The translations under genes and the position numbers were made by a program. Below, one piece after another: positions 1-12,787 of a DNA stretch of 12,787 nucleotides (position 1 is its first letter; every line of letters starts with the position of its first letter). The DNA comes from a virus (taxonomy: Duplodnaviria > Heunggongvirae > Uroviricota > Caudoviricetes), in the IMG/VR virus record IMGVR_UViG_2693429748_000014. One strand, 5' to 3'. Below the pieces are notes generated by a model. That model saw only the letters and a program-made list of their open reading frames with translations. It did not search any database and was not told the DNA's origin.

Positions 1-72
1 TAAGTGATACTGGTTGTCTGGAGATTCAGGGGGCCAGTCTACCACCCCTGATGTCAGGTAGGAAAACACCAT
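1..72 (-). CDS. 5'-partial ORF of unknown function downstream of D; begins MVFSYLTSGVVDWPPESPDNQYHL and runs off the window start
   Basis: ATG at 72-70 on the minus strand, preceded by an AAGGA-containing stretch; open to the window edge. No recognisable similarity to Ogr, which would follow D in P2. Confidence 0.2.
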   Translation of the reverse strand, partial: MVFSYLTSGVVDWPPESPDNQYHL

Positions 73-190
73 ATGTTTCTGCTCTGTTTTTCCTTAGAAA
101 TAGGCATCCTTGCTGGAACAAAGCGAGCAGCTATATTGACTCTATGTTGTGAGTGTGTTGATCCGTTCTGAGTTAATACATTTAAGTTGC

Positions 191-1300
191 TCACTCTGTT
201 TCTGCTATCCATTCCGGGATTTTTGCCTCAAGCTCAAGCTGCGTGGTAAAGCCGCTGTTATCAATGGTGTGCTCGGCTTTTGCAATAATCCAGTCCTGAT
301 TATCAATCTCGCTTTTAAATCCTGTTACCGTGCCATGCATTTCGGGGTAGAGTTCTGCACGTCCATGCGCCAGTGTGATGGAGAATGATGCGGCTCCGCG
401 TTGTAGCTGCTGCCACTTTGCCGCCGCTGCACGTCTTGCTGCCTGCTCGTTCTGATAAGTTTTGCGTAACACAAACACGTTGCCTTCCGCACCTTCCATA
501 TAGTCGCCTTCCCGGCTGCTGCTTTTCTCCTTTTTTGGTTTTGACGGTTTGCGGCGTTTCACGCTGACTTTTTTCTTTTTCCCGTAATTAAGATCAAGCC
601 AGTAAGCGCGTACCCCCGTATACGCTTCGCGGTCAGCAATGCGGAACTGATGGCGATCGCCGCTGCTGCGTGTGATGGCGAACGAGGGCAACGGCTGGCC
701 CTGTGCGTTCACGCCACCACCGGGCATGATGAATAACAGATTACCGCTTTTTACCGTGGTGATTGCGCCCAGCATTTCCGCCATGCGCGTAAGGAAGGAC
801 ATGTCGCTTTCTTCGGTCTGGTCGGCGTGGTCGATTTCGATATCCATCAGCATTTCGCTGATTTGCGGTTTCAGACCATACCGATGAGCGATGGCGGATA
901 CCACACGCTCAACGGTCACATCATGCCAGGACACCTCACGTTTAACGTTAAATTCAGCCCGAAAATCTGCGCTTCTGGCTGAAACAGTCAGCCTGTCCGG
1001 CGGTCCTTCGTGAGCGATTTCATCAACAATGTAAGTGCCTTTTTCTGTCAGCGGTTCTCCCTTCCAGCCAATGAGAACCGTCAGGCGCGCGCCCCGTGGC
1101 GGTAGCTGCAACTGACCATCCGCATCATCCAGCGTGATGGTGAGCTGGTCCGCCTCAAATCCCCGGTTGTCGGTCAGTGACAGGCTCATCAGGCGCTCTG
1201 CCACGCCTGACAGCGTTTTACCCTCCGCGAGAATATCAAAATCCGGCATTTTCACGGGGTCTGTGCCCTGACTGAGCAATTGCATGGTGGTGTCGGTCAT
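191..1300 (-). CDS. P2 gpD-like tail protein (late control gene D family)
   Basis: Translation recalls P2 gpD motifs (LSLTDNRGFEADQL, SARSADFR, SWHD, FLTR, GDRHQF, REGDYMEG, NSGFTT, lysine-rich KKKKVSVKRRKPSKPKKEK linker). Start placed at the internal ATG at 1300 (MTDTTMQLL) because of the GGGAGGGAG Shine-Dalgarno just upstream; the ORF-track start at 1432 is probably too long. Confidence 0.85.
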   Translation of the reverse strand: MTDTTMQLLSQGTDPVKMPDFDILAEGKTLSGVAERLMSLSLTDNRGFEADQLTITLDDADGQLQLPPRGARLTVLIGWKGEPLTEKGTYIVDEIAHEGPPDRLTVSARSADFRAEFNVKREVSWHDVTVERVVSAIAHRYGLKPQISEMLMDIEIDHADQTEESDMSFLTRMAEMLGAITTVKSGNLLFIMPGGGVNAQGQPLPSFAITRSSGDRHQFRIADREAYTGVRAYWLDLNYGKKKKVSVKRRKPSKPKKEKSSSREGDYMEGAEGNVFVLRKTYQNEQAARRAAAAKWQQLQRGAASFSITLAHGRAELYPEMHGTVTGFKSEIDNQDWIIAKAEHTIDNSGFTTQLELEAKIPEWIAETE

Positions 1301-1457
1301 CTGCTCCCTCCCTGTGTGGCATGGTCGCATGTGCGTGCGGAGGGGGTTACTGCTTTTTGTTGTCGCCGTGGCGGGAGAATGGCGCAGGGGTGAGATTACG
1401 CGCGTGGTGGGTGATGATTGTTGCCGAATCATTTAACGGATACAAGGGGTTGAAGCT

Positions 1458-2642
1458 ATGAGTGAAACTCGTTTTCATGGTGCCCGTGTTACGGAAAATA
1501 CCGACCTGGTAACAGCGATTAACGATGTTGATTCCAGCGTTATCGGTATCGTGGCAACGGCGGATGATGCGGACGCGGAGCTGTTCCCGCTGAACAAGCC
1601 CACACTGCTGCCCCGCGTCAATGACGTGCTGGGAAAATGCGGAACAACGGGGACGCTTTATCGTGCGCTTAAGGCCATCGCAGACCAGGTGAGCACAAAG
1701 GTGATCGTCGTTCGCGTGGCTGAACACAAAGAAGAAGACGGAAAAACGCAGGATCAACTGGTTATCGGTGGTTCTGAATCTGACGGCAGCTATACGGGGA
1801 TGTATGCGCTGCTTGTTGCAGAGCAGGATGAAAGCATCGGATACCGTCCGCGTATTCTGGCCGCGCCGGAGCTGGACACGGAGGCGGTGACAAAATCCCT
1901 GTGCGTGATTGCGGGTAAACTGCGCGCGTTTGTGTATGCCTCATGTCATGACTGTAACACGATGGCTGAGGCAATTACCTACCGCCAGAAATTCAACGAA
2001 CGTGAGGTGATGCTCTTATGGCCGGACTTCATCGCCTACAACCCGAAAAGTGGCAAAAACGAAACGTTCCCCGCGCCTGCCTATGCGTGCGGCCTTCGTG
2101 CGTACATTGACCATGAGCAGGGCTGGCACAAATCGCTGTCCAACGTTCCGGTTAAAAATGTGCTGGGGATGTCCAGGCATGTGTTCTGGTCGTTGCAGGC
2201 CGAAGACAGTGATGCCAACAGCCTCAACAACAAAGAAATCACGACCATTATTCGTCGCAACGGGTTCCGCTTCTGGGGCAACCGCACACCGGAAACGAAC
2301 GCCTACATCTTTGAGGTGTATACCCGAACCGCACAGGTGCTGGCTGATTCAATTGCGGAAGCGCAGTTTGAAACCATCGACAGTCCACTGACGCCTGCGA
2401 ACGTGAAGGATGTTATCGGTGCCATCAGGGCAAAACTGGATTCACTGGTTACTGCCGGGAAACTGATTGGGGCGTCGTGCTGGTATGACGTGGTGGATAA
2501 CGGCACCACGAATTTACGTCAGGGGCGCGTGCGTATTCGCTACAAATATACGCCTGTTCCCCCGCTGGAAGACATGGAGCTTTACCAGTCGTTTACTGAT
2601 GAATTCTTTGGTCCCGCATTTGCGGTGCTGGGAGGTGCCTGA
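1458..2642 (+). CDS. contractile tail sheath protein (P2 gpFI family)
   Basis: 394 aa; motifs LRAFVYAS, WPDF, DHEQGWHKSLSNV, RRNGFRFWGNRT, YTRTAQV and YKYTPVPPLE match tail sheath proteins as I recall them; AAGGGG RBS; stop overlaps next start (ATGA). Confidence 0.9.
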   Translation: MSETRFHGARVTENTDLVTAINDVDSSVIGIVATADDADAELFPLNKPTLLPRVNDVLGKCGTTGTLYRALKAIADQVSTKVIVVRVAEHKEEDGKTQDQLVIGGSESDGSYTGMYALLVAEQDESIGYRPRILAAPELDTEAVTKSLCVIAGKLRAFVYASCHDCNTMAEAITYRQKFNEREVMLLWPDFIAYNPKSGKNETFPAPAYACGLRAYIDHEQGWHKSLSNVPVKNVLGMSRHVFWSLQAEDSDANSLNNKEITTIIRRNGFRFWGNRTPETNAYIFEVYTRTAQVLADSIAEAQFETIDSPLTPANVKDVIGAIRAKLDSLVTAGKLIGASCWYDVVDNGTTNLRQGRVRIRYKYTPVPPLEDMELYQSFTDEFFGPAFAVLGGA

Positions 2643-3154
2643 TGGCTGTACCAAAACATCTTCGCTTTTTTACGCTGTTTGTGGATGGTGAAAACGAAGT
2701 GGGTAAGGTGACGTCCGTCACTCTGCCTAAGCTGACGCGCAAAACCGACAGCTACCGGGGTGGTGGCATGATGGGAGCGGTAAGTATTGATCTCGGCCTG
2801 GATGACTCCGCGCTTGATGCGAGCTTTGTCATGGGGGGCGCAGTTCGTGAGCTGTTCCTTAAGTATGGCGGCACGATTGACGGTACGCTGCTGCGTTTTG
2901 CGGGTGAATACTACACCGACGCTGAAAGCGACCTGTATGAAGTCGAAATGCGCGGACGTGTGACGGAAATTGATATGGGGGAAGCCAAACAGGGCGAAGC
3001 CACATCACACACTTACGCCATTAAAAACACCTACTACAAGCTGAGTGTTAACGATCGCCCGTTGTGGGAGATTGACCTGCTGAACTTCATTTACCGGAAG
3101 GACGGCAGGGACATTGTGCCCGATCGCATCCGTTCCGCGCTCGGGCTTGGCTGA
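2642..3154 (+). CDS. tail tube protein (P2 gpFII family)
   Basis: 170 aa immediately after the sheath gene; translationally coupled (ATGA overlap) with GGGAGG RBS; size and position typical of the FI-FII pair. Confidence 0.85.
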   Translation: MAVPKHLRFFTLFVDGENEVGKVTSVTLPKLTRKTDSYRGGGMMGAVSIDLGLDDSALDASFVMGGAVRELFLKYGGTIDGTLLRFAGEYYTDAESDLYEVEMRGRVTEIDMGEAKQGEATSHTYAIKNTYYKLSVNDRPLWEIDLLNFIYRKDGRDIVPDRIRSALGLG

Positions 3155-3208
3155 TAAGTAATATGCAGGCGGCGCAGTGCGTCGCCTCTGACTGAAAGGA
3201 GTTTCCTG

Positions 3209-3574
3209 ATGAAAGAGACGAAAAACATCGATACCGAAAACACGGTCGTTGCTGACACTGTGAAAGAAACCAGTGAGCGTGGCGTAAAACTTACCCAACC
3301 AATTGAGCGAGGCGGCGAAAAAATCACGTATGTGGAGATCACCGGGGCTATTGAGCAGGCTGGATCTCTGCGAGATTTGTCGCTGTCTGATGTGCTGAAT
3401 TTGAAAGCGGAATCCATGTTTACGCTGCTGTCACGCGTGACATCACCGCGACTGGATGAAGTGACGATCAAAAAAATGGCATCCCGTGACTTTATTCAGT
3501 TATGTGTGGTTGCCGTAAATTTTTTGAGCGGTGCGGACTCTGGCGAGAAGAACGAACAGGCGACGGAAGCCTGA
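3209..3574 (+). CDS. tail assembly chaperone (P2 gpE-like), zero-frame product
   Basis: 121-aa ORF between tube and tape measure genes; AGGAG RBS 8 nt upstream; contains the TTTTTTG slippery heptamer at 3520-3526. Confidence 0.75.
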   Translation: MKETKNIDTENTVVADTVKETSERGVKLTQPIERGGEKITYVEITGAIEQAGSLRDLSLSDVLNLKAESMFTLLSRVTSPRLDEVTIKKMASRDFIQLCVVAVNFLSGADSGEKNEQATEA

Positions 3575-3738
3575 TCACGGTTGTGTGCTTTGAGCACATA
3601 GAAGACTTTGTGGCGGATATTGCCGCCATTTTTAACTGGTCGCCCGCCGAAATCTTCATGATGACGCCCGGCGAAGTGGTTAGCTGGCGTGAGCGGGCGG
3701 CACTTCGCAGCGGGAATGCAGACAATGAAGACTCTTGA
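3209..3738 (+). CDS. gpE+E'-like frameshift fusion product (-1 slip at T TTT TTG, 3520-3526)
   Basis: Slippery heptamer lies in-frame as N-F-L. The -1 frame is open from there to the TGA at 3736-3738 (ORF-track protein 3502..3738) and overlaps the tape measure start, as in the P2 E/E' and lambda G/GT arrangement. Confidence 0.6.
3520..3526 (+). promoter_or_regulatory. programmed -1 ribosomal frameshift slippery site TTTTTTG
   Basis: Heptamer seen directly in the sequence with the correct zero-frame phasing (aaT TTT TTG); same heptamer is used in P2 E/E' by recollection. Confidence 0.6.
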
Positions 3739-6532
3739 TATCCGGGTCGCTTTCAGCGCCGTTGACAGGCTGACCCGGCCTGCCGAAAACGCCCGCCGCC
3801 TGATGGGGCAGTTTGGTGACTCCATCCAGCGAACGCAGGGGGCGATCAAAAATCTCGAGCGTCAGGCGCGTTCATTTGAGCGCGCCCGTGACGCTGTCAG
3901 TAAAGCGGATGCGGGCATCGTGAAAGCACGACGCCAGCTTAACGCCCTTAATCAGTTACAACGCACGGGTACAGTGCTCAGCGAAAAACAACAAAAGCTG
4001 ATGCAGCAGTTAAGCACCCGGCTTGAACGCCTGAATGAATCGCGCACACGGGAAATTCAGAAAATGCGGGAACTTGGCGGAGAGCTGAAACGCCACGGCA
4101 TTTCCCTGACAGGCAGCGATAACACCATCCAGCAGGCCATCAGACGCACCGGACAATACAACAACCAGCTTGAACGCGAACGGCGGGCGCTTGCGCGTGT
4201 AACGCAGGCGCGTGAGCGGTATTCACGCGCGCAGGAAACAGCGGGAAAACTGAAAACAGGTGGTGCGCTGGCAACAGGTGCGGCGGCAGCGGGCGGCTAT
4301 GCTGCCGGGCGTTTTTTGCAGCCCGCTATCGGGTTCGGGAAAGAGATGTCCCGTGTTCAGGCACTGACGCGAATCGATAAAAACAGCCCGCAGTTTAAGG
4401 CGCTGCGTGAGCAGGCGTTAAAACTTGGCTCTGAAACGCAGTTCACCGCAGGCGATGCCGCCAGTGGACAGGCATTTCTTGCAATGGCTGGTTTCACACC
4501 GCAGGCCATTCAGGCTGCGCTTCCCGGCGTGCTGAGCATGGCAACGGCTGGCGGTATGGACCTCGGCGAGACGGCGGATATTGGTTCCAATATCCTGACG
4601 CAGTTCGGCCTCTCTGCTGACCAGATGGACCGGGTCGGTGACACACTTACCGCAGCGTTTACCCGTACCAACACTGACCTTCGCGCACTGGGCGAAACCA
4701 TGAAATATGCAGGTCCGGTGGCGGGTAAGCTGGGAATATCGCTGGAGCAGGCCGCAGCGATGGCGGGCGTGCTGGCGAAGATGGGTATCAGGGGGAGTGA
4801 TGCAGGTACAGCGTTGCGTAAAAGCCTGGCCAATCTGTCATCACCGCCAAAGGCAGCGGCAGAAGCACTGAAAGAGCTGGGGGTGTCAGTTGCTGACGCC
4901 AAAGGCAAAATGCGCCCGATGGAGAATGTGCTGGCCGATCTCTATAAAGCCACCCGCAAATACGGGGAGGTTGACCGGGTATCGTTCTTTAAGGACATTG
5001 CCGGAGAAGAGGCTTTCACATCATTTATGGGCCTCGTTGATGCGGCAGGTGACGGCTTCTTAGCCAAACTGAGAAAAGAACTTGAAGGCGCGCGCGGTGA
5101 GGCAGAACGCACGGCAAAGGTTATGGCCAATAACCTTGATGGCAACCTGAAATCACTCGGCAGTGCATGGGAAGGTCTGCGTATTCGCATCAGTGATCTG
5201 GTTGACGGTCCGCTGCGTTCTGTCACGCAGTGGCTCACGCGGGTTGTCTCAAAGGTGACGGCGCTGGCGCAGGCCCACCCGGCACTGACGCGCCAGTTAC
5301 TGATAGCGGGAGGCGCACTGCTGGCGACAACAGCAACGGTTGGTTCGTTGTCTCTGGTTATTGGGGTGCTTCACGGGAAGCTGGCTACGTTGCGTCTCGG
5401 TTTTTCTCTCCTGACCGAATCAATGAATGTTGTCAGGGTTCTGCCTGCATTATGGGGAATGGTGACGGGTTCCGTTTCTTTACTTGGTGGCGCTATCGGG
5501 GCGCTGTTCAGTCCGGTTAGTCTTATCGTGGCTGCGCTTGCCGGAGCTGCCGTTCTTATCTGGAAATACTGGGATCCCATCAGGGCATTTTTTGCCGGGG
5601 TGTTCAGCGGGATTATGGAAAGGCTGACCCCGTTGCGCGAAACCTTTGAACGGTTTGGCCCTGTTTTTGATGTCGTGCGCGATGGGATTATTCAGGTCTT
5701 TAACTGGTTTAAATCGCTGCTGTCACCGATGGAGTCCAGCAAGGAAACGCTGGATAAATGTGCCAGTGCTGGCGAGATATTCGGTAACGTTCTTGGCGGT
5801 GCGTTACAACTTGTTCTGACACCTGCAAAAATGCTACTGGATACGCTGGCGTGGATACTTGAAAAACTTGGCGTCCTTCCGGATGAAGCGGAAAGGGCGC
5901 GCAAGAAAATCGAAGACGCACAGCGTGCGGCCATTCTTCAGGACAAGGTTGCCTTGCTTCAGGGGGACCTGGCGAAAATCAATCCGCCGAAGCCTGTGGA
6001 AAATGGCAATGGCACCGGAGGTGATAAACCCAAAGACAACAAACCGCTCACAGACAGCAATACCGGGACGCTACGCAGACTCAGCAAAATTGCTGATAAC
6101 ACAGGTAAGCTGGTTGATGAGACGAAAAAACGCATTGGCCCCGGCGATATTGTCTTTAAGAACCTGCCCCGCGCACTTGCTGTTCGTGGGGAGTGGCAGG
6201 AGCGGAAGATTGCGCAGGTCAGTAAGCCTGCCCCCGCAATTAATATCACACCCGTGGTCCCGGCTCCGCTGCCTCCGGCGCTGGTCCCTGTTGTTGCGGC
6301 CAGCTCCCGCCCGGTGGCGGAGGCCATACGCTCTCCAGTGGCATCAGTTCCTGTAACTTCCCGTAACCGGGAGCCTGTTGCCTCCGGATTTGGTGGTGAA
6401 ATTCATGTTCATCTGCATAACGTTGTTACGCAGAATCCCCGCGAACTGGCGAAACTGGTCGGTGAAATGGTCAGGGCAGAAATGGAACGGCGCGCCCGTG
6501 CCGGGCGTGGCAGTTTTTACGATAAAGATTGA
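3725..6532 (+). CDS. tail tape measure protein (P2 gpT-like)
   Basis: Very long ORF (GTG 3689 to TGA 6532) after the chaperone pair; coiled-coil-like N-terminal region, central hydrophobic Gly/Ala/Leu-rich block, Pro/Ala-rich C-terminus. Start uncertain: ATG 3725 (GGGA about 9 nt upstream) preferred, with ATG 3716 and GTG 3689 as alternatives. Confidence 0.8.
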   Translation: MKTLDIRVAFSAVDRLTRPAENARRLMGQFGDSIQRTQGAIKNLERQARSFERARDAVSKADAGIVKARRQLNALNQLQRTGTVLSEKQQKLMQQLSTRLERLNESRTREIQKMRELGGELKRHGISLTGSDNTIQQAIRRTGQYNNQLERERRALARVTQARERYSRAQETAGKLKTGGALATGAAAAGGYAAGRFLQPAIGFGKEMSRVQALTRIDKNSPQFKALREQALKLGSETQFTAGDAASGQAFLAMAGFTPQAIQAALPGVLSMATAGGMDLGETADIGSNILTQFGLSADQMDRVGDTLTAAFTRTNTDLRALGETMKYAGPVAGKLGISLEQAAAMAGVLAKMGIRGSDAGTALRKSLANLSSPPKAAAEALKELGVSVADAKGKMRPMENVLADLYKATRKYGEVDRVSFFKDIAGEEAFTSFMGLVDAAGDGFLAKLRKELEGARGEAERTAKVMANNLDGNLKSLGSAWEGLRIRISDLVDGPLRSVTQWLTRVVSKVTALAQAHPALTRQLLIAGGALLATTATVGSLSLVIGVLHGKLATLRLGFSLLTESMNVVRVLPALWGMVTGSVSLLGGAIGALFSPVSLIVAALAGAAVLIWKYWDPIRAFFAGVFSGIMERLTPLRETFERFGPVFDVVRDGIIQVFNWFKSLLSPMESSKETLDKCASAGEIFGNVLGGALQLVLTPAKMLLDTLAWILEKLGVLPDEAERARKKIEDAQRAAILQDKVALLQGDLAKINPPKPVENGNGTGGDKPKDNKPLTDSNTGTLRRLSKIADNTGKLVDETKKRIGPGDIVFKNLPRALAVRGEWQERKIAQVSKPAPAINITPVVPAPLPPALVPVVAASSRPVAEAIRSPVASVPVTSRNREPVASGFGGEIHVHLHNVVTQNPRELAKLVGEMVRAEMERRARAGRGSFYDKD

Positions 6533-6538
6533 GGAGTC

Positions 6539-7033
6539 ATGGCCATGATGATGATCTACGGCATGTTTGTTTTTGAGCTGCGTACATTGCCGCATCAGCA
6601 GTTACAGCAAAACAAAAGCTGGCGGCATGTGAAAAATGAACGCGTTAACCGTTCGGCAAGCTGGCAGTATATCGGTGCAGGTGATGAGCGCATCGTTCTT
6701 TCTGGTGTGCTTTATCCTGAAATTACAGGTGGCGAAGTGTCGCTGTCGCTGCTGACCACGCAGGCGTATACAGGACGACCCTGGCCTCTGATTGATGGCG
6801 TCGGGCAGATTTACGGCATGTATGTCCTGACCGAAACGAATACGACCCGCTCCGAGTTTGATCGCTACGGTAAGGCGAAAAAGATAGAATTTTCACTGAC
6901 TCTTGAACGCTGTGATGAGGATTTGCGGGAGCGCCTGCAATCCTCATCGTTCAGCGATATGCTGTCCGGCTTCAAAGATAAGGTAACATCATCCCTTAAC
7001 AGCGCGGCCAGTTCAGTTAAAGGGTTGTTCTGA
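6539..7033 (+). CDS. tail protein gpU-like (tail sheath-terminating / tail completion protein)
   Basis: 164-aa ORF directly after the tape measure gene with GGAG RBS; size and position match P2 gpU. Confidence 0.8.
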   Translation: MAMMMIYGMFVFELRTLPHQQLQQNKSWRHVKNERVNRSASWQYIGAGDERIVLSGVLYPEITGGEVSLSLLTTQAYTGRPWPLIDGVGQIYGMYVLTETNTTRSEFDRYGKAKKIEFSLTLERCDEDLRERLQSSSFSDMLSGFKDKVTSSLNSAASSVKGLF

Positions 7034-7044
7034 TTTAACACAAA

Positions 7045-7079
7045 AACCGCTAATGGTCAGATTAGCGGTTATTTTGTTT
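7045..7079. terminator. bidirectional intrinsic terminator between convergent U and invertase genes
   Basis: Perfect 10-bp inverted repeat AACCGCTAAT / ATTAGCGGTT with 6-nt loop, A-run upstream and ATTTTGTTT downstream. Confidence 0.6.
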
Positions 7080-7656
7080 CCTGACTCTTCTCTATTGTTC
7101 CGATTGATTCTCCTGCGGGGTGGTAACGATAAATCGTCGATATACCAATGCCGTAAATTATTGCCAGTTGTTTTCTGTCGTGCCCGTTTTTGATCAGCCT
7201 TGCTATTTGCTCATGCTGTTCTTTTGTCAGCTTCGGTCGACGTCCGCCTGTGCGCCCCCGTGCGCGTGCTGCCGCCAGTCCGGCCAGTGTACGTTCAACA
7301 ATTAATTCACGTTCCATTTCAGCCAGGGCACCCATCACGTGGAAGAAAAAACGCCCCATTGGAGAAGATGTATCTATGCTGTCGGTCAGACTGCGAAAAT
7401 TAATTCCTCGCTCCCGTAGTTCCCCGACGAGAGAAATCAGATGTTTCATGCTTCGCCCGAGGCGATCCAGTTTCCAGACAACCAGCGTGTCACCTTTTTG
7501 AAGGCGCTTTAAAGCGCGTTTTAATCCCGGTCGGTCTGTCTTTGTCCCGCTTAATTTATCTTCAAATATTTGTTCACATCCTGCACAAACAAGAGCGTTT
7601 CGTTGCAGGTCTGTATTCTGGTCATTTGTTGATACCCTTACATAGCCAATCAGCAC
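7069..7656 (-). CDS. serine site-specific DNA invertase (Gin/Pin/Cin/Hin family)
   Basis: N-terminus VLIGYVRVSTNDQNTDLQRNAL with catalytic-serine motif, WKLDRLGRS, GRFFFHVMGALAEMERELIVERT and a C-terminal helix-turn-helix, all hallmark invertase sequences. Start set at GTG 7656 (GGGAGA RBS) rather than the TTG at 7674 used by the ORF track. Confidence 0.9.
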   Translation of the reverse strand: MLIGYVRVSTNDQNTDLQRNALVCAGCEQIFEDKLSGTKTDRPGLKRALKRLQKGDTLVVWKLDRLGRSMKHLISLVGELRERGINFRSLTDSIDTSSPMGRFFFHVMGALAEMERELIVERTLAGLAAARARGRTGGRRPKLTKEQHEQIARLIKNGHDRKQLAIIYGIGISTIYRYHPAGESIGTIEKSQETK

Positions 7657-7710
7657 GCTGAATCTCCCGTCCAAAAGCGCAAATCATGCCATGCAGGCCG
7701 GAAACGGCCA

Positions 7711-7736
7711 TTATCTAAAACCTCGGTTTACAGGAA
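7711..7736. promoter_or_regulatory. 26-bp invertase crossover site (gix/cix/hix-like): TTATCTAAAACCTCGGTTTACAGGAA
   Basis: Imperfect palindrome with AAACC-N2-GGTTT core; matches the Mu gix sequence as I recall it at 25 of 26 positions. Lies between the invertase start and the fibre cassette. Confidence 0.7.
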
Positions 7737-7760
7737 ACGGTAAACAAGGCTGGTAACGCC

Positions 7761-8747
7761 GTGCAAAAAAATGGCGATACGTTGTCCGGTGGACTTACTT
7801 TTGAAAACGACTCAATCCTTGCCTGGATTCGAAATACTGACTGGGCAAAGATTGGGTTTAAAAATAATTCGGATGCAGACACCGATTCCTACATGTGGTT
7901 TGAAACAGGCAACAACGGCAATGAATATTTCAAATGGAGACACCGCATCATTGGCACCCGGCCTAAAGACCTGATGAATCTTAAATGGAATGCTTTGTCT
8001 GTTCTTGTTGAAGCCCTTTTCAGCAGTGAAGTGAAAATATCGACAGTCAATGCACTGAGGATATTTAATTCATCTTTTGGTGCCATTTTTCGTCGTTCTG
8101 AAGAATGCCTGCATATCATCCCTACACGAGAGAATGAAGGGGAAAATGGTAATATAGGGCCACTACGCCCCTTTACGCTTAATCTCAGAACTGGCCGGAT
8201 AAGCATGGGGCATGGTCTTGATGTTACAGGGGATATATTTGCAAACCGTTTTGCAATTAACAGTAGTACCGGCATGTGGATTCATATGCGTGACCAGAAT
8301 GTTATTTTGGGACGTAATGCGGTATCCACTGATGGTGCTCAGGCTTTGCTCCGTCAGGACCATGCCGACCGCAAATTTATGATTGGCGGTCTGGGAAATA
8401 AGCAATTTGGCATCTACATGATTAATAACTCAAGGACAGCCAATGGCACCGATGGTCAGGCGTACATGGATAATAACGGGAACTGGCTTTGCGGCTCGCA
8501 AGTTATTCCCGGCAACTATGGCAATTTTGATTCCAGATATGTGAAAGATGTTCGACTTGGTTCACAGCAATATTATGGAGTGAACAACTGGCAAACATGG
8601 AATTTTCAGTGCCCGTCAGGCTATGTACTGACGGGGATTAACGTACAGGATACCGGAAAAAACTCTGCCGATAATATTGCAGGCGTTCATTACAGGCCAG
8701 TGCAAAAGTATATAAATGGCACTTGGTATAATGTGGCGAGTATTTAA
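7761..8747 (+). CDS. tail fibre C-terminal variable cassette (Sv-like); reading frame is actually open from 7719
   Basis: Contains the [10 protein letters not shown] fibre motif and ends [11 protein letters not shown]. The GTG start at 7761 is probably not a real initiation site: the frame is open back into the right half of the crossover site, as expected for a cassette fused to a constant N-terminal part by inversion. Confidence 0.75.
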
Positions 8748-8748
8748 T

Positions 8749-9276
8749 ATGATGCACTTAAAGAACATAAAAGCAGGTAATGCTAAAACAGTGGAGCAGT
8801 ATGAGTTAACAAAGAAGCACGGAGTCATCTGGCTTTACTCTGAGGACGGAAAAAACTGGTATGAGGAAGTGAAGAACTTTCAGCCAGACACAATAAAGAT
8901 TGTTTACGATGCAAATAATATTATTGTCGCCATCACCAAAGATGCCTCCACGCTTAACCCTGAAGGTTATAGCGTCGTTGAGGTTCCTGATATTACAGCT
9001 AATCGTCGTGCTGATGATTCCGGTAAGTGGATGTTTAAGGACGGAGCTGTGGTTAAACGGATTTATACGGCTGACGAACAGCAACAACAGGCCGAATCAC
9101 AAAAGGCCGCATTGCTTTCCGAAGCTGAATCAGTCATCCAGCCGCTGGAACGCGCTGTCAGGCTGAATATGGCGACGGACGAGGAACGCACACGACTGGA
9201 AGCATGGGAACGCTACAGTGTTCTGGTCAGCCGTGTGGATACGGCAAAGCCAGAATGGCCACAAAAGCCTGAGTAA
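8749..9276 (+). CDS. tail fibre assembly chaperone (Tfa / Mu U / P2 G family)
   Basis: Starts [10 protein letters not shown] one nucleotide after the cassette stop; paralogous to the convergent ORF 9305..9838; conserved [19 protein letters not shown] and KWMFKDG motifs. The longer ORF-track start at 8716 overlaps the fibre gene and is less likely. Confidence 0.8.
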
Positions 9277-9281
9277 AAATT

Positions 9282-9301
9282 AAGGCCCGATATCGGGCCT
9301 T
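9282..9301. terminator. palindromic hairpin / bidirectional terminator between convergent tfa genes
   Basis: AAGGCCCGATATCGGGCCTT is a perfect 20-bp palindrome with A/T-rich flanks on both sides. Confidence 0.5.
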
Positions 9302-9304
9302 GTT

Positions 9305-9838
9305 TCATTCTGGTTGTTCGGGAAACGTTACTGGCAGGCTGGAGGTGTCTGTGGATTCGACCTTCTGCGCATAGAGCATCCACTCGGTTAATTTTTGTTT
9401 ATTCTCGTCGGAAATAATGCCCAGCCGTAGCTGTGAGTCCCATAGCTGGGTTTTATCCCTGACGAGCTGTAGCAGGCTTTGCTTTTCATTTTCCGCTTGT
9501 TGCCTCTGCTCTTCCCCGGTATAAGTTCGCTTTATCACTACGCCATCTTTGAACATCCATTTACCTGAAATATCAGCCCGGCGATTTGCTGTAATATCAG
9601 GAACCTCAACGACGCTTGCGCCTTCCGGATTAATTGCTGAAACATCCTTTTCAATACAAATAATAACGCCGTTGTGGTCATAGACCATTTTCAACGTATC
9701 AGGCTGAAAGTTCTTTTGTTCCTCATACCAGTTTTTCCCATCCTCTGTATAAAGCCATTTGATGTTAAATTGTTTCGTTAGCTGGTATTGCTCTTTTGTT
9801 TCAGGATTACCAGCAGAAATGTTTTTTAAGTGCATCAT
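9305..9838 (-). CDS. tail fibre assembly chaperone, second paralogue (Tfa')
   Basis: Starts MMHLKNISAG; N-terminal two-thirds closely similar to the plus-strand chaperone while the C-terminus diverges, as expected for cognate chaperones of alternative fibres. Confidence 0.8.
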   Translation of the reverse strand: MMHLKNISAGNPETKEQYQLTKQFNIKWLYTEDGKNWYEEQKNFQPDTLKMVYDHNGVIICIEKDVSAINPEGASVVEVPDITANRRADISGKWMFKDGVVIKRTYTGEEQRQQAENEKQSLLQLVRDKTQLWDSQLRLGIISDENKQKLTEWMLYAQKVESTDTSSLPVTFPEQPE

Positions 9839-9840
9839 CG

Positions 9841-10197
9841 TTAAATACTCCCCGCGTTATACCACGTCCCATTAATGCAATACTGAATTGGCCTTGCCTG
9901 AGTTGTATCAATTAGTTCATCTCTGTTTGAGTTAACGGAACCGGTAACAACATAACCTGACCTGTCAGACCATCCGGGACCATTCCATGTCTGAACAGAT
10001 AACAGACCACCAAGGCGAATACCTGTAATAAACCTTGAGTTACATTCTGCCTGCGTATATGCACCAACATCTCCCGCAGAGGGTTTGCGGGTTGTGGTGT
10101 AAAACTCTGAGGTGTACTGGCAATAGCGGACACTACCATTTGTTCTTTTTTTAAGCAGCCATCTGATGATATTTTTCCCTGAAGGCTGAAGGCTATT
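9841..10197 (-). pseudogene. truncated alternative tail-fibre C-terminal cassette (Sv' remnant), about 118 codons with no start codon
   Basis: Hand translation of the minus strand gives ...RLGGLLSVQTWNGPGWSDRSGYVVTGSVNSNRDELIDTTQARPIQYCINGTWYNAGSI*, homologous to the C-terminus of the plus cassette (SGYVLTG ... [11 protein letters not shown]). Stop TAA at 9843-9841, 2 nt before the Tfa' start. Frame closed upstream by TGA at 10200-10198, where GC content drops. Confidence 0.55.
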
Positions 10198-10250
10198 TCA
10201 ATATCGCTATGCTGCGGCAGCATTTAACCCCTTGTAATTCATCGCCATAA

Positions 10251-10279
10251 TTGATTTAATTCACAAATAAAACTATAAT
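10251..10279 (+). promoter_or_regulatory. predicted sigma70 promoter TTGATT-N17-TATAAT for the methyltransferase gene
   Basis: Hexamers at 10251-10256 and 10274-10279 with 17-bp spacer in an AT-rich region just upstream of the ORF. The predicted transcription start would leave a very short leader. Confidence 0.35.
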
Positions 10280-10291
10280 ATGGTGAAATTA

Positions 10292-10948
10292 ATGAAAAAA
10301 AACACAGATGATGGGGCTAAAATTTACACACCACTTACCCTAAAGCTTTATGACTGGTGGGTTTTGGGAGTATCAAATCGGCTTGCATGGGGATGTCCTA
10401 CAAAGGAACACCTTCTTCCACACTTTCTGGAACATTTAGGTAACAACCATCTGGATATTGGTGTTGGAACTGGGTTTTACCTTACTCACGTACCTGAGAG
10501 TAGTCTGATATCTTTAATGGATTTGAACGAAGCTAGCCTGAACGCGGCATCTACAAGGGCTGGGGAATCAAAAATTAAACATAAAATTAGCCATGATGTT
10601 TTTGAACCTTATCCCGCGGCGTTACATGGTCAATTTGATTCCATTTCCATGTTTTACCTTCTTCACTGCCTGCCTGGAAATATATCTACAAAAAGCTGTG
10701 TAATACGCAATGCGGCGCAGGCCTTAACTGATGATGGAACTCTATACGGAGCCACAATTCTTGGCGATGGAGTTGTGCACAATAGCTTCGGTCAAAAACT
10801 GATGCGCATTTACAATCAGAAAGGCATCTTTTCAAACACAAAAGATTCCGAAGAAGGCTTAACACATATACTCTCAGAGCATTTCGAGAATGTTAAAACC
10901 AGGGTTCAAGGTACTGTAGTAATGTTTTCCGCTTCAGGGAAAAAATAG
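10292..10948 (+). CDS. class I SAM-dependent methyltransferase (cargo / moron gene)
   Basis: Motif I-like LDIGVGTGFY, acidic residue after the second strand (LMDLNEASL) and later FDSISMFYLLHCLPG / LTDDGTLYGATILGDG motifs, consistent with the Rossmann methyltransferase fold. Clearly lower GC than the flanks. Start at ATG 10292 (GGTGA RBS) preferred; ATG 10280 possible. Confidence 0.65.
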   Translation: MKKNTDDGAKIYTPLTLKLYDWWVLGVSNRLAWGCPTKEHLLPHFLEHLGNNHLDIGVGTGFYLTHVPESSLISLMDLNEASLNAASTRAGESKIKHKISHDVFEPYPAALHGQFDSISMFYLLHCLPGNISTKSCVIRNAAQALTDDGTLYGATILGDGVVHNSFGQKLMRIYNQKGIFSNTKDSEEGLTHILSEHFENVKTRVQGTVVMFSASGKK

Positions 10949-10955
10949 CATCCAA

Positions 10956-10988
10956 CCGCAGCACGTTCTTGCTTAAGACGTGCTGCGG
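10956..10988. other. stem-loop after the methyltransferase gene (CCGCAGCACGT ... ACGTGCTGCGG)
   Basis: 11-bp perfect inverted repeat 8 nt after the stop codon; no T-run follows on the plus strand, so terminator function is uncertain. Confidence 0.3.
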
Positions 10989-11146
10989 CATAATCCCAAT
11001 GATTACTCCCTGACAGGGTTCGTAGGCCACTCAATATCAGGTGCAGTTGATGTATCAACACGGTTCAGCAACACCCGATACTTTTTCTAGGCTTCCACCA
11101 CCAGCACGACAAGATGCCGCATACAGTGACCCAGTCAGTCCAGTTT

Positions 11147-11329
11147 TCAGACAACCAGTGCGTCACCTTTTTGAAGGCGCTTTAAAGCACGTTTTAATCC
11201 AGGTCGGCCTGTCCTTGTTCCGCTTAATTTATCTTCAAATATTTGTTCATATCCTGCACAAACAAGAGCGTTTCGTTGCAGGTCTGTATTCTGGTCATTT
11301 GTTGATACCCTTACATAGCCAATCAGCAC
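11147..11329 (-). pseudogene. 5' fragment of a second Gin/Pin-family invertase gene (about 60 N-terminal codons), truncated
   Basis: Encodes VLIGYVRVSTNDQNTDLQRNALVCAGYEQIFEDKLSGTRTGRPGLKRALKRLQKGDALVV then a stop; 4 amino-acid differences from the intact copy. Homology to the intact gene ends near 11139. Confidence 0.7.
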
Positions 11330-11383
11330 GCTGAATCTCCCGTCCAAAAGCGCAAATCATGCCATGCAGGCCGGAAACGGCCA

Positions 11384-11409
11384 TTATCTAAAACCTCGGT
11401 TTACAGGAA
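11384..11409. promoter_or_regulatory. second copy of the 26-bp gix-like crossover site, in direct orientation to the first
   Basis: Identical sequence TTATCTAAAACCTCGGTTTACAGGAA, 3673 bp downstream of the first copy. Confidence 0.65.
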
Positions 11410-11433
11410 ACGGTAAACAAGGCTGGTAACGCC

Positions 11434-12420
11434 GTGCAAAAAAATGGCGATACGTTGTCCGGTGGACTTACTTTTGAAAACGACTCAATCCTTGCCTGGA
11501 TTCGAAATACTGACTGGGCAAAGATTGGGTTTAAAAATAATTCGGATGCAGACACCGATTCCTACATGTGGTTTGAAACAGGCAACAACGGCAATGAATA
11601 TTTCAAATGGAGACACCGCATCATTGGCACCCGGCCTAAAGACCTGATGAATCTTAAATGGAATGCTTTGTCTGTTCTTGTTGAAGCCCTTTTCAGCAGT
11701 GAAGTGAAAATATCGACAGTCAATGCACTGAGGATATTTAATTCATCTTTTGGTGCCATTTTTCGTCGTTCTGAAGAATGCCTGCATATCATCCCTACAC
11801 GAGAGAATGAAGGGGAAAATGGTAATATAGGGCCACTACGCCCCTTTACGCTTAATCTCAGAACTGGCCGGATAAGCATGGGGCATGGTCTTGATGTTAC
11901 AGGGGATATATTTGCAAACCGTTTTGCAATTAACAGTAGTACCGGCATGTGGATTCATATGCGTGACCAGAATGTTATTTTGGGACGTAATGCGGTATCC
12001 ACTGATGGTGCTCAGGCTTTGCTCCGTCAGGACCATGCCGACCGCAAATTTATGATTGGCGGTCTGGGAAATAAGCAATTTGGCATCTACATGATTAATA
12101 ACTCAAGGACAGCCAATGGCACCGATGGTCAGGCGTACATGGATAATAACGGGAACTGGCTTTGCGGCTCGCAAGTTATTCCCGGCAACTATGGCAATTT
12201 TGATTCCAGATATGTGAAAGATGTTCGACTTGGTTCACAGCAATATTATGGAGTGAACAACTGGCAAACATGGAATTTTCAGTGCCCGTCAGGCTATGTA
12301 CTGACGGGGATTAACGTACAGGATACCGGAAAAAACTCTGCCGATAATATTGCAGGCGTTCATTACAGGCCAGTGCAAAAGTATATAAATGGCACTTGGT
12401 ATAATGTGGCGAGTATTTAA
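11434..12420 (+). CDS. tail fibre C-terminal variable cassette, second copy (identical to 7761..8747)
   Basis: ORF-track translation is identical to the first copy. Confidence 0.7.
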
Positions 12421-12421
12421 T

Positions 12422-12787
12422 ATGATGCACTTAAAGAACATAAAAGCAGGTAATGCTAAAACAGTGGAGCAGTATGAGTTAACAAAGAAGCACGGAGTCA
12501 TCTGGCTTTACTCTGAGGACGGAAAAAACTGGTATGAGGAAGTGAAGAACTTTCAGCCAGACACAATAAAGATTGTTTACGATGCAAATAATATTATTGT
12601 CGCCATCACCAAAGATGCCTCCACGCTTAACCCTGAAGGTTATAGCGTCGTTGAGGTTCCTGATATTACAGCTAATCGTCGTGCTGATGATTCCGGTAAG
12701 TGGATGTTTAAGGACGGAGCTGTGGTTAAACGGATTTATACGGCTGACGAACAGCAACAACAGGCCGAATCACAAAAGGCCGCATTG
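12422..12787 (+). CDS. tail fibre assembly chaperone, second copy, 3'-truncated by the window end
   Basis: Same [10 protein letters not shown] start and sequence as 8749..9276 at offset +3673; runs off the window. Confidence 0.7.

What the first reader, a model, noticed from the sequence alone, without database searches (positions are those of the whole stretch)
191..7068. FI-FII-E-E'-T-U block inverted relative to D and the fibre/invertase region
In P2 and relatives the order is fibre H, chaperone G, then FI FII E E' T U D on one strand in one late operon. Here D is on the opposite strand upstream of FI, and the invertase and fibre region lies after U rather than before FI. Reading the window in reverse complement gives fibre cassettes, invertase, then U-T-E-FII-FI reversed, then D forward: the canonical order with exactly the FI-to-U block flipped. 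The breakpoints fall in the D/FI divergent intergenic region (1301-1457) and at the palindromic terminator 7045-7079. D would need its own promoter if this is real.
Basis: inference. Interest (0 to 1): 0.6.

Follow-up and report, generated by a model that had tools for sequence, protein, structure and literature searches.

The report
P88-type prophage tail genes, normal order
The flipped sheath-to-U tail gene block is real, but it is the standard, inherited gene order of a large group of P2-related prophages (phage P88 and relatives, found in about a quarter of complete E. coli genomes), not a misassembly or a recent rearrangement.

Summary

- The same order occurs in phage P88 (Xuanwuvirus), Salmonella phage SEN5 and two Klebsiella phage genera.
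- The D/FI junction is contiguous in 1356 of 5426 complete E. coli genomes.
- It occurs in 61 of 61 species-representative genome loci whose D protein is at least 61% identical to this one. These come from about 28 genera of Enterobacterales.
- All classifiable loci with D at 54% identity or less, plus P2, phiCTX and RSA1, are canonical.
- D, FI, FII and U trees each place the inverted loci in one clade, which fits a single old inversion.

The expression question has a candidate answer. The 157-bp D/FI spacer carries one Ogr-type site (TGT-N12-AGA, 1361-1378). Two -10 hexamers sit mirror-symmetrically around it, with the same geometry as the mapped P2 pP/pO divergent late promoters. This layout is conserved in 63 diverged relatives. 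The promoter has not been tested experimentally.

Verdict: an ordinary, already deposited arrangement of low interest. The right end of the window is separately odd: a 1.65-kb direct repeat, a truncated fibre gene and a methyltransferase.

The parts
1..45 (.). Terminal sequence of insertion element IS2. It is not part of the tail module and marks the left edge of the window.
   Evidence: 18,447 places in 4499 E. coli genomes; the match abuts an annotated IS2 family transposase.
191..1300 (-). Gene D (baseplate hub / late control D family), 369 aa.
   Evidence: Pfam Phage_GPD 5e-17 and phrog_52 1e-166. 99% identical to P88 D. Start codon and ribosome-binding site conserved in the alignment of 63 relatives.
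1321..1326 (-). Predicted -10 hexamer of the D promoter (GACCAT on the minus strand). It is the mirror image of the FI -10 about the activator site.
   Evidence: The NANNAT pattern is conserved at the exact mirrored offset in 45 of 63 distinct inverted-type spacers, against 1 of 14 canonical relatives. Function is inferred.
1361..1378 (.). Ogr/Delta-type activator site TGTCGCCGTGGCGGGAGA (TGT-N12-AGA), centre 1369.5. Predicted to serve both divergent promoters.
   Evidence: T1361, T1363 and A1376 are invariant in 63/63; G1362 and A1378 in 61/63; the N12 spacer varies freely. Consensus TGT-N12-ACA as cited in PMC3931495. Same geometry as P2 pP/pO.
1413..1418 (+). Predicted -10 hexamer of the FI (pF-type) late promoter, GATGAT.
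   Evidence: A1414, A1417 and T1418 are invariant in 63/63. It lies at offset 52 from the TGT in 59/63. The offset is 52-53 in P2 pF and in 14/18 canonical relatives.
1458..2642 (+). FI, tail sheath.
   Evidence: Pfam Phage_sheath_1, Gp18_domIII_N and Phage_sheath_1C; phrog_23.
2642..3154 (+). FII, tail tube.
   Evidence: Pfam Phage_tube 2e-46.
3209..3738 (+). E (3209-3574) and E+E'. E' is made by a -1 frameshift at T_TTT_TTG 3520-3526 and read to 3738. These are the tail assembly chaperones.
   Evidence: phrog_103. The ORF at 3502-3738 is in the -1 frame. Heptamer read directly from the sequence. P2 annotation of E/E+E'. The shift itself is inferred by analogy.
3689..6532 (+). T, tape measure protein. 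Probable start is the ATG at 3725, as annotated in relatives.
   Evidence: Pfam PhageMin_Tail 1e-57, phrog_28. Relatives annotate a 2808-bp gene.
6539..7033 (+). U, tail protein.
   Evidence: Pfam Phage_P2_GpU 8e-39.
7045..7070 (.). Bidirectional intrinsic terminator between the convergent U and invertase genes.
   Evidence: Terminator scan on both strands. Folds at -16.1 and -15.7 kcal/mol, z = -4.9 and -4.3.
7069..7674 (-). Serine DNA invertase of the Hin/Gin/Cin/Pin type. The probable start is at 7656.
   Evidence: Pfam Resolvase 1.5e-50 plus HTH_7; phrog_125 DNA invertase. P88 annotates a 588-bp gene.
7711..7736 (.). Invertase crossover site TTATCTAAAACCTCGGTTTACAGGAA.
   Evidence: Core AAACCTCGGTTT found at 7718-7729; sequence. 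The resemblance to the Mu gix site is from memory.
7761..9838 (.). Fibre module next to the block: fibre C-terminal cassette 7761-8747 (+), fibre assembly gene 8716-9276 (+), and a second fibre assembly gene 9305-9838 (-).
   Evidence: phrog_454/6859 tail fibre; Pfam Caudo_TAP for both assembly genes.

Best explanation
The window is the tail end of a P88-type (genus Xuanwuvirus, family Peduoviridae) P2-related prophage in its normal configuration.

In an ancestor of a large enterobacterial sub-clade of P2-like phages, the segment from the pF late promoter through FI, FII, E/E', T and U was inverted once. The breakpoints lay just upstream of the pF activator site and in the short U/D junction. 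This split the P2 'F operon' into two divergent late transcription units.

FI to U is read rightward and ends at the two-way terminator 7045-7070. D is read leftward; in relatives it is followed by cargo genes and ogr.

Both units are predicted to fire from one shared Ogr-type activator site (1361-1378). Their -10 elements sit mirror-symmetrically on either side (1413-1418 and 1326-1321). This is the layout of the experimentally mapped divergent pP/pO late promoters of P2.

The invertase and fibre cassettes belong to the fibre module on the far side of the breakpoint and played no demonstrable part.

Shown here: gene identities, the order, its distribution, monophyly of the inverted loci, and conservation and geometry of the promoter elements. 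Inferred: the direction of the event (canonical is ancestral), a single origin, and promoter activity and Ogr dependence.
For: Same order in deposited phages: P88, 520873, 503458, P884B11, 500465-2, PhiR44_2, Chuche and Citrobacter phiSM. Also Salmonella SEN5 (Senquatrovirus), Klebsiella Kp4871-3 (Reginaelenavirus) and Kp4848-1 (Reipivirus).

Junction prevalence: the D/FI junction (window 900-2000) is contiguous in 1356 of the 1380 E. coli genomes that hold it. The U/invertase junction (6600-7500) is contiguous in 621.

IMG/VR: 396 relatives of D. All 80 retrieved loci have D opposite FI; one of them (L081) carries a further rearrangement of U and the invertase.

Species-representative genomes: 61/61 loci with D at 61% identity or more are inverted, and 15/15 classifiable loci at 54% or less are canonical.

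Neighbour-joining trees of D, FI, FII and U, rooted on the canonical phiCTX and RSA1, each place all inverted loci in one clade with no canonical member inside.

Promoter. A TGT-N12-A(C/G)A site is present in 63/63 distinct spacers, with a variable N12. The FI -10 is at offset 52 in 59/63 and the mirrored D -10 in 45/63. The offsets are identical to P2 pP/pO, whose start sites at 3016 and 3127 lie 55.5 bp either side of the site centre. Canonical relatives keep the site and the FI -10 (14/18) but lack the mirrored -10 (1/14). In SEN5 and Kp4871-3 the perfectly symmetric site scores in both directions.

P88 and phiSM form plaques, according to PMC5285337 and PMC6456863. The arrangement is therefore functional.
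Against: No transcription data were available, so the D promoter and its Ogr dependence are predictions.

The window's site is TGT-N12-AGA, one mismatch from the consensus. The window's D -10 (GACCAT) is weak.

Eighteen of 63 relatives lack a clean NANNAT at the mirrored offset.

The strict motif does not find P2's own degenerate late promoters and gives chance hits elsewhere. The argument therefore rests on conservation and geometry, not on motif specificity.

The trees are simple neighbour-joining trees without support values, built from tblastn segments.

No sequence trace of the inversion mechanism (inverted repeats or cryptic crossover sites at the two breakpoints) was found.

The ogr gene is not inside this window.
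Confidence: 0.88

Rival explanations
1. The inverted block is an assembly error or a strain-specific recent rearrangement in this window.
For: The window looks like a short-read contig bounded by repeats: an IS2 end at 1-45 and a repeated fibre segment at the right end. Its right-hand part does contain a junction seen nowhere else.
Against: Both breakpoints are contiguous at 95-100% identity in finished genomes: 1356 for D/FI and 621 for U/invertase. They are also contiguous in sequenced, plaque-forming phages. The unusual junctions lie at 9538-11139, outside the block.
Confidence: 0.01
2. FI to U is a programmed, reversible invertible segment flipped by the adjacent serine invertase.
For: The invertase gene abuts one breakpoint (7069-7674). 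Enzymes of this family are known (from general knowledge) to use secondary sites occasionally. One IMG/VR contig (L081) has U and the invertase in a further rearranged orientation.
Against: There is no crossover-like site in 1301-1457 or at 7034-7080, and no inverted repeat pairs the two breakpoints. Every one of the more than 140 retrieved inverted-type loci has D and FI in this same divergent orientation. Most inverted-type loci, including phage SEN5, have no invertase at all. Canonical relatives that do have an invertase keep it on the fibre side of FI (L150, L168).
Confidence: 0.02
3. The order arose by replacement of the sheath-to-U module with a foreign contractile-tail cassette inserted backwards, or by several independent inversions, rather than by one in-place inversion.
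For: P2-like genomes are mosaic. The baseplate gene J does not follow the same clade structure. Other P2-like phages show tail-gene rearrangements (Smp131, PMC3931495).
Against: D stayed in place and FI, FII and U were flipped, yet all show the same clean split. Their divergence from canonical phages is similar (median 45-52% identity between groups). This is as expected if they diverged together. No canonical member falls inside the clade for any of the four genes.
Confidence: 0.07

Closest known systems
Escherichia phage P88 and other Xuanwuvirus prophages (NC_026014)
   Same: Window 180-7751 is 96.5% identical and collinear with P88. The gene order is identical: D, then the divergent FI FII E E' T U, then the invertase and fibre cassettes. 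D, FII, U and the invertase are 99% identical in protein; FI, E and T are 97%.
   Different: P88 has ogr directly after D; here an IS2 end lies about 150 bp beyond D. The fibre region to the right of about 9538-10110 differs and is partly duplicated.
Bacteriophage P2 F operon (FI FII E E' T U D, promoter pF)
   Same: Same seven genes, the same E/E' slippery heptamer, and a pF-type promoter with the activator site about 55 bp upstream of the start.
   Different: Proteins are only 32-50% identical. D is on the opposite strand, so the operon is split in two. D needs and apparently has its own -10 element.
P2 pP/pO divergent late promoters
   Same: One central activator site with two outward promoters. 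The -10 elements are at the same offsets from the site (+52 and -40 from the TGT), which places the start sites about 55.5 bp either side.
   Different: It drives tail genes rather than the packaging and head genes. Sequence similarity to P88's own pP/pO spacer is weak (z about 2.8), so common descent is not shown. No mapping data exist for the D/FI spacer.
Mu Gin / P1 Cin / e14 Pin fibre-switching systems
   Same: A serine invertase with an HTH_7 domain lies next to opposed fibre C-terminal cassettes and assembly genes. The cassettes are 88-95% identical to those of SfMu, P1, P7 and D108.
   Different: This system is adjacent to the inverted block but not responsible for it. Within this window the two recognisable crossover sites are in direct orientation, not inverted.

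Membership tests
P2-like contractile tail module (Peduoviridae) | Full set of FI sheath, FII tube, E/E' chaperones, T tape measure, U and D | tested here: met
   Pfam and PHROGs hits for each gene. tblastn to P2 homologues gives 32-50% identity.
P2-like contractile tail module (Peduoviridae) | Canonical order FI-FII-E-E'-T-U-D on one strand in one operon | tested here: not met
   D is on the opposite strand. This defines the P2/186 branch only, not the family: four ICTV genera of Peduoviridae share the inverted order.
Xuanwuvirus (P88-like phages) | High nucleotide identity and collinearity with P88 | tested here: met
   96.5% identity over window 180-7751 in one collinear piece. Only the part of the genome inside the window could be tested.
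Inverted-F-block clade of Peduoviridae (defined here) | D divergent from FI with a spacer of about 150-200 bp. In relatives, ogr lies downstream of D and the baseplate genes are on D's strand. | tested here: met
   The window has the D/FI divergence. The ogr and baseplate positions are seen in relatives but lie outside the window.
Ogr/Delta-dependent late promoter | TGT-N12-ACA element centred about 55 bp upstream of the start, with a -10 but a poor -35 | tested here: inconclusive
   TGT-N12-AGA at 1361-1378 has one mismatch. The -10 elements are at the correct distances on both sides and are conserved across 63 relatives. The start sites themselves are not mapped.
Ogr/Delta-dependent late promoter | Transcription requires the Ogr-family zinc-finger activator | not testable with these tools
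   An ogr homologue is present in relatives next to D but is not in the window. Testing requires an experiment.
Hin/Gin/Cin/Pin DNA inversion system | Serine recombinase with resolvase catalytic domain and C-terminal HTH | tested here: met
   Pfam Resolvase 1.5e-50 and HTH_7 1.8e-13.
Hin/Gin/Cin/Pin DNA inversion system | Two crossover sites in inverted orientation flanking the switchable segment | tested here: not met
   Only two good sites were found (7718-7729 and 11391-11402), both inside a direct repeat, plus one poor match at 10896. The partner site normally lies in the fibre gene H, which is truncated here.
Hin/Gin/Cin/Pin DNA inversion system | Fis-dependent enhancer within the 5' part of the recombinase gene | not tested
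   No search was made.

The most novel reading that the evidence does not exclude
The old inversion carried the pF activator site to the 5' side of D and turned it into a shared, two-way Ogr-dependent promoter. A new -10 element evolved at the mirror position. This gave a whole clade of enterobacterial P2-like phages a separately tunable D (and, in relatives, D-ogr) late transcript. I found no description of this clade-defining rearrangement or its promoter in the P88, phiSM or SEN4/SEN5 papers.
Probability: 0.55. Interest if true: 0.3.

Novelty: already known. Interest (0 to 1): 0.17.

Why it matters
It matters mainly as a correction. P2, 186 and Fels-2 are not the only template for P2-like prophages. 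A large enterobacterial branch, present in about a quarter of complete E. coli genomes, carries the sheath-to-U block flipped. Annotators and scanners should not flag this as an anomaly.

There is also a modest biological point. The arrangement shows how a phage late operon can be split by an inversion without losing regulation, because a symmetric activator site can serve both directions. The D/FI orientation is a simple, robust marker for that branch of Peduoviridae.

Tried and rejected
1. Invertase-mediated origin. I searched for crossover-like cores (AAACCNNGGTTT, up to 1 mismatch) and for inverted repeats linking 1301-1457 with 7034-7080. None were found. Invertase-free members of the clade (SEN5 and most genome loci) make the idea unnecessary.

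2. Exact TGT-N12-ACA search in the window. There was no hit in the spacer, because the window's site ends in AGA. It was recognised only from the multi-species alignment.

3. A genome-wide strict motif scan as a specificity test. It was not informative for P2, whose real sites are degenerate, and it gave chance hits.

4. Descent of the D/FI spacer from P88's own pP/pO spacer. A global alignment gave z = 2.8 forward and 1.7 reversed, which is too weak to claim.

5. Literature. The P88, phiSM and SEN4/SEN5 papers contain no mention of inversion, orientation or gene order for this block. A wider term search found only a Burkholderia P2-like phage paper, whose matches to those terms concern insertion sequences and genome maps, not this block.

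6. Source genome. FDAARGOS_943 matches 6600-7500 at 100% but has a different fibre region. O111 strains match 40-330 at 100% but have an acetyltransferase instead of the invertase. IMG/VR contig L007 is identical only to window 1-9538. The source was not identified.

Full report
**What is in the window**

- D (Pfam Phage_GPD, phrog_52) is on the minus strand. Its longest ORF runs 191-1432.
- The start codon conserved across relatives is the ATG at 1300, preceded by GGGAGG.
- On the plus strand follow FI sheath (1458-2642), FII tube (2642-3154) and E (3209-3574).
- E' is in the -1 frame to 3738. The slippery heptamer T_TTT_TTG lies at 3520-3526.
- Then come T (probable start 3725, end 6532) and U (6539-7033).
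- A hairpin at 7045-7070 has U-runs on both strands and folds well in both directions.
- A serine invertase (7069-7674, minus strand) converges on U.
- A crossover site (core at 7718-7729) and fibre cassettes with assembly genes follow.

P2 has V W J I H G, then FI FII E E' T U D ogr, all on one strand. The description 'exactly FI to U is flipped' is therefore accurate.

**Is it unusual? No.**

Megablast against phage records finds the same arrangement at 93-96% identity in Escherichia phages P88, 520873, 503458, P884B11, 500465-2, PhiR44_2 and Chuche, and in Citrobacter phage phiSM.

The annotated P88 genome (genus Xuanwuvirus) reads as follows (ogr located by tblastn):

- V W J I H G on the plus strand
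- opposed cassettes and the invertase
- U T E' E FII FI on the minus strand
- D and ogr on the plus strand

P88 and phiSM are plaque-forming phages according to their papers, so the arrangement works.

In complete E. coli genomes, the D/FI junction (window 900-2000) is contiguous in 1356 of the 1380 genomes that contain it. That is a quarter of all 5426 genomes. The U/invertase junction (6600-7500) is contiguous in 621.

IMG/VR holds 396 relatives of this D. All 80 retrieved loci have D opposite FI, and one of them (L081) carries a further rearrangement of U and the invertase.

**How far does the arrangement reach?**

A protein search with D against all phage records shows an identity gap. About a dozen records are above 90%, 35 lie at 60-80%, and the rest are below 60%.

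Three representatives of the middle band were fetched: Klebsiella phages Kp4871-3 (Reginaelenavirus) and Kp4848-1 (Reipivirus), and Salmonella phage SEN5 (Senquatrovirus). All have FI to U inverted, with D and ogr on the baseplate strand. SEN5 has no invertase at all.

A scan of one genome per bacterial species with an alignment of D proteins returned 80 loci. Classifying them by local tblastn gave a clean split.

- All 61 loci with D at 61% identity or more to the window are inverted.
- They come from about 28 genera of Enterobacterales, including Salmonella, Edwardsiella, Serratia, Erwinia, Pantoea, Enterobacter, Kosakonia, Citrobacter, Pectobacterium, Brenneria, Klebsiella, Xenorhabdus, Photorhabdus, Providencia, Morganella, Hafnia and Yersinia.
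- All 15 classifiable loci at 54% or less are canonical.
- phiCTX (Pseudomonas) and RSA1 (Ralstonia) are canonical too.

Neighbour-joining trees of D, FI, FII and U were rooted on those two. Each places every inverted locus in one clade with no canonical locus inside. The baseplate gene J does not follow this split, as expected for a mosaic family.

The simplest reading is one old inversion in an enterobacterial sub-lineage of Peduoviridae, with the canonical order ancestral. D stayed in place while FI, FII and U moved, yet all four show similar divergence from canonical phages. This argues against import of a foreign tail cassette.

**No role for the invertase**

No crossover-like site and no paired inverted repeat lies at the two breakpoints. 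The invertase is present in only a minority of both inverted and canonical loci. It is always on the fibre side of the breakpoint. It belongs to the fibre-switching module, which happens to abut U after the inversion.

**How D is expressed**

An alignment of the D/FI spacer from 63 distinct inverted-type loci (D protein identity down to about 60%) shows three conserved islands in otherwise diverged sequence.

1. TGT-N12-A(C/G)A at window 1361-1378. T1361, T1363 and A1376 are invariant. G1362 and A1378 are kept in 61/63. The N12 varies freely.
2. A NANNAT hexamer at 1413-1418 on the plus strand. A1414, A1417 and T1418 are invariant.
3. A NANNAT hexamer on the minus strand at 1326-1321.

The two hexamers are exact mirror images about the site centre (1369.5). 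Among the 63 sequences, the FI hexamer is at offset 52 from the TGT in 59, the D hexamer is at the mirrored offset in 45, and both are present in 44.

TGT-N12-ACA is the published consensus of the Ogr-dependent late promoters of P2 (PMC3931495, citing Christie and Calendar 1985 and Julien and Calendar 1995).

In the annotated P2 record, the divergent pP and pO promoters share one activator site. Their mapped start sites at 3016 and 3127 lie 55.5 bp either side of its centre, and their -10 regions sit at the same +52 and -40 offsets.

The window predicts starts near 1425 (FI) and 1314 (D), again 55.5 bp from the centre.

Canonical relatives keep the site and the FI -10 upstream of FI (14 of 18). 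They lack the mirrored hexamer (1 of 14), so the D-side element is specific to the inverted clade.

My inference is as follows. The inversion carried pF with the block, which placed its symmetric activator site next to D. A -10 at the mirror position was then enough to give D, and in relatives the downstream ogr, a late promoter. None of this has been tested experimentally.

The window's site has one mismatch (AGA), as does P88's own pP/pO site read on the other strand. Sequence similarity between the two spacers is too weak to claim common descent.

**Comparison with what is known**

The arrangement is already public in ICTV-classified phage genomes and in thousands of bacterial assemblies. 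The window is simply another P88-type prophage.

I found no explicit discussion of the inversion in the P88, phiSM or SEN4/SEN5 papers. The clade-level statement and the shared-promoter model may therefore be unremarked, but they are modest points.

**Things outside the finding**

- The window starts with the terminal 45 bp of IS2.
- The region between D and ogr is a cargo site in relatives. It holds an Hxs cluster in strain B2 and a PIN-domain gene in O111.
- The right part of the window is odd. Positions 7466-9114 are repeated directly at 11139-12787 (99.45% identity), and the window ends inside the repeat.
- The active fibre gene is cut off at about 10110.
- It is followed by a methyltransferase (10280-10948) and a truncated second invertase copy (11147-11347). 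Together these match the end of a lambdoid prophage next to potB in ETEC H10407 and many other strains.
- The joint between the two parts is absent from all 5426 complete E. coli genomes.
- An IMG/VR contig is identical to the window only up to 9538.

This may be a real recombinant between two prophage fibre regions, or an assembly path through repeated cassettes. It does not touch the two breakpoints of the finding.

**Verdict**

This is an ordinary member of a known phage group, with a plausible and testable explanation for how the split operon is expressed.

Noticed in passing
window 7466-9114 and 11139-12787: A 1649-bp direct repeat at 99.45% identity. It covers the 5' part of the invertase gene, the crossover site, a fibre C-terminal cassette and most of a fibre assembly gene. 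The window ends inside the second copy. Relatives have only one copy.
   Followed up: partly
window 9841-11347: The minus-strand fibre cassette is truncated at about 10110-10190. It is joined to a class I SAM methyltransferase (10280-10948) and a 66-aa invertase fragment (11147-11347). The methyltransferase and invertase fragment match the end of a lambdoid prophage beside potB in ETEC H10407. The junction itself is found in none of 5426 complete E. coli genomes. It could be a recombinant or an assembly chimera.
   Followed up: partly
window 7718-7729, 11391-11402, 10896-10907: The only two good invertase crossover cores are in direct orientation. No inverted partner is present, so as assembled the fibre segment could be deleted but not inverted by the invertase. 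The third match (AAACCAGGGTTC) is poor and lies at the methyltransferase 3' end.
   Followed up: partly
window 1-45: The window begins with the terminal sequence of IS2. This sequence has thousands of copies in E. coli genomes and abuts an annotated IS2 transposase. The window is therefore probably a short-read contig bounded by repeats.
   Followed up: yes
window 40-190; L002 11436-14833; L173 12424-13926: The gap between D and ogr is a cargo insertion spot in this phage group. It holds a His-Xaa-Ser (hxsDBCA) cluster in strain B2 and a PIN-domain protein in O111 RM9322, and it is empty in P88. Window 40-330 is 100% identical to the O111-type version.
   Followed up: partly
L173 21161-21733: In O111 RM9322 a serine O-acetyltransferase occupies the position of the invertase, between U and the fibre assembly gene. 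The U-side breakpoint is thus also a variable cargo site.
   Followed up: no
L081 (IMGVR_UViG_2654587728_000014) 1924-7612: One IMG/VR contig has U and the invertase flipped relative to T. About 3 kb of unmatched DNA lies between them and only part of T is matched. This is a secondary rearrangement or insertion in that contig.
   Followed up: no
L007 (IMGVR_UViG_2693429557_000008): A 12,679-bp IMG/VR contig is 100% identical to window 1-9538. It then diverges inside the minus-strand fibre assembly gene and joins sequence from near the crossover region of the fibre gene H. This looks like an alternative arrangement or assembly path of the same element.
   Followed up: partly
window 1328-1340 and relatives; L001 14181-14196: A G+C-rich block (consensus CACGCGCGCGCG) is conserved between the predicted D -10 and the activator site in the inverted clade. 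A similar CGCGCGCG run sits in the equivalent position of P88's pP promoter. Its function is unknown.
   Followed up: no
L090 (NZ_JBQPOM010000071.1): A contig labelled Vagococcus sp. (a Gram-positive genus) carries a P88-type tail module with D 98% identical to the window. This is most likely contamination or mislabelling of that assembly.
   Followed up: no
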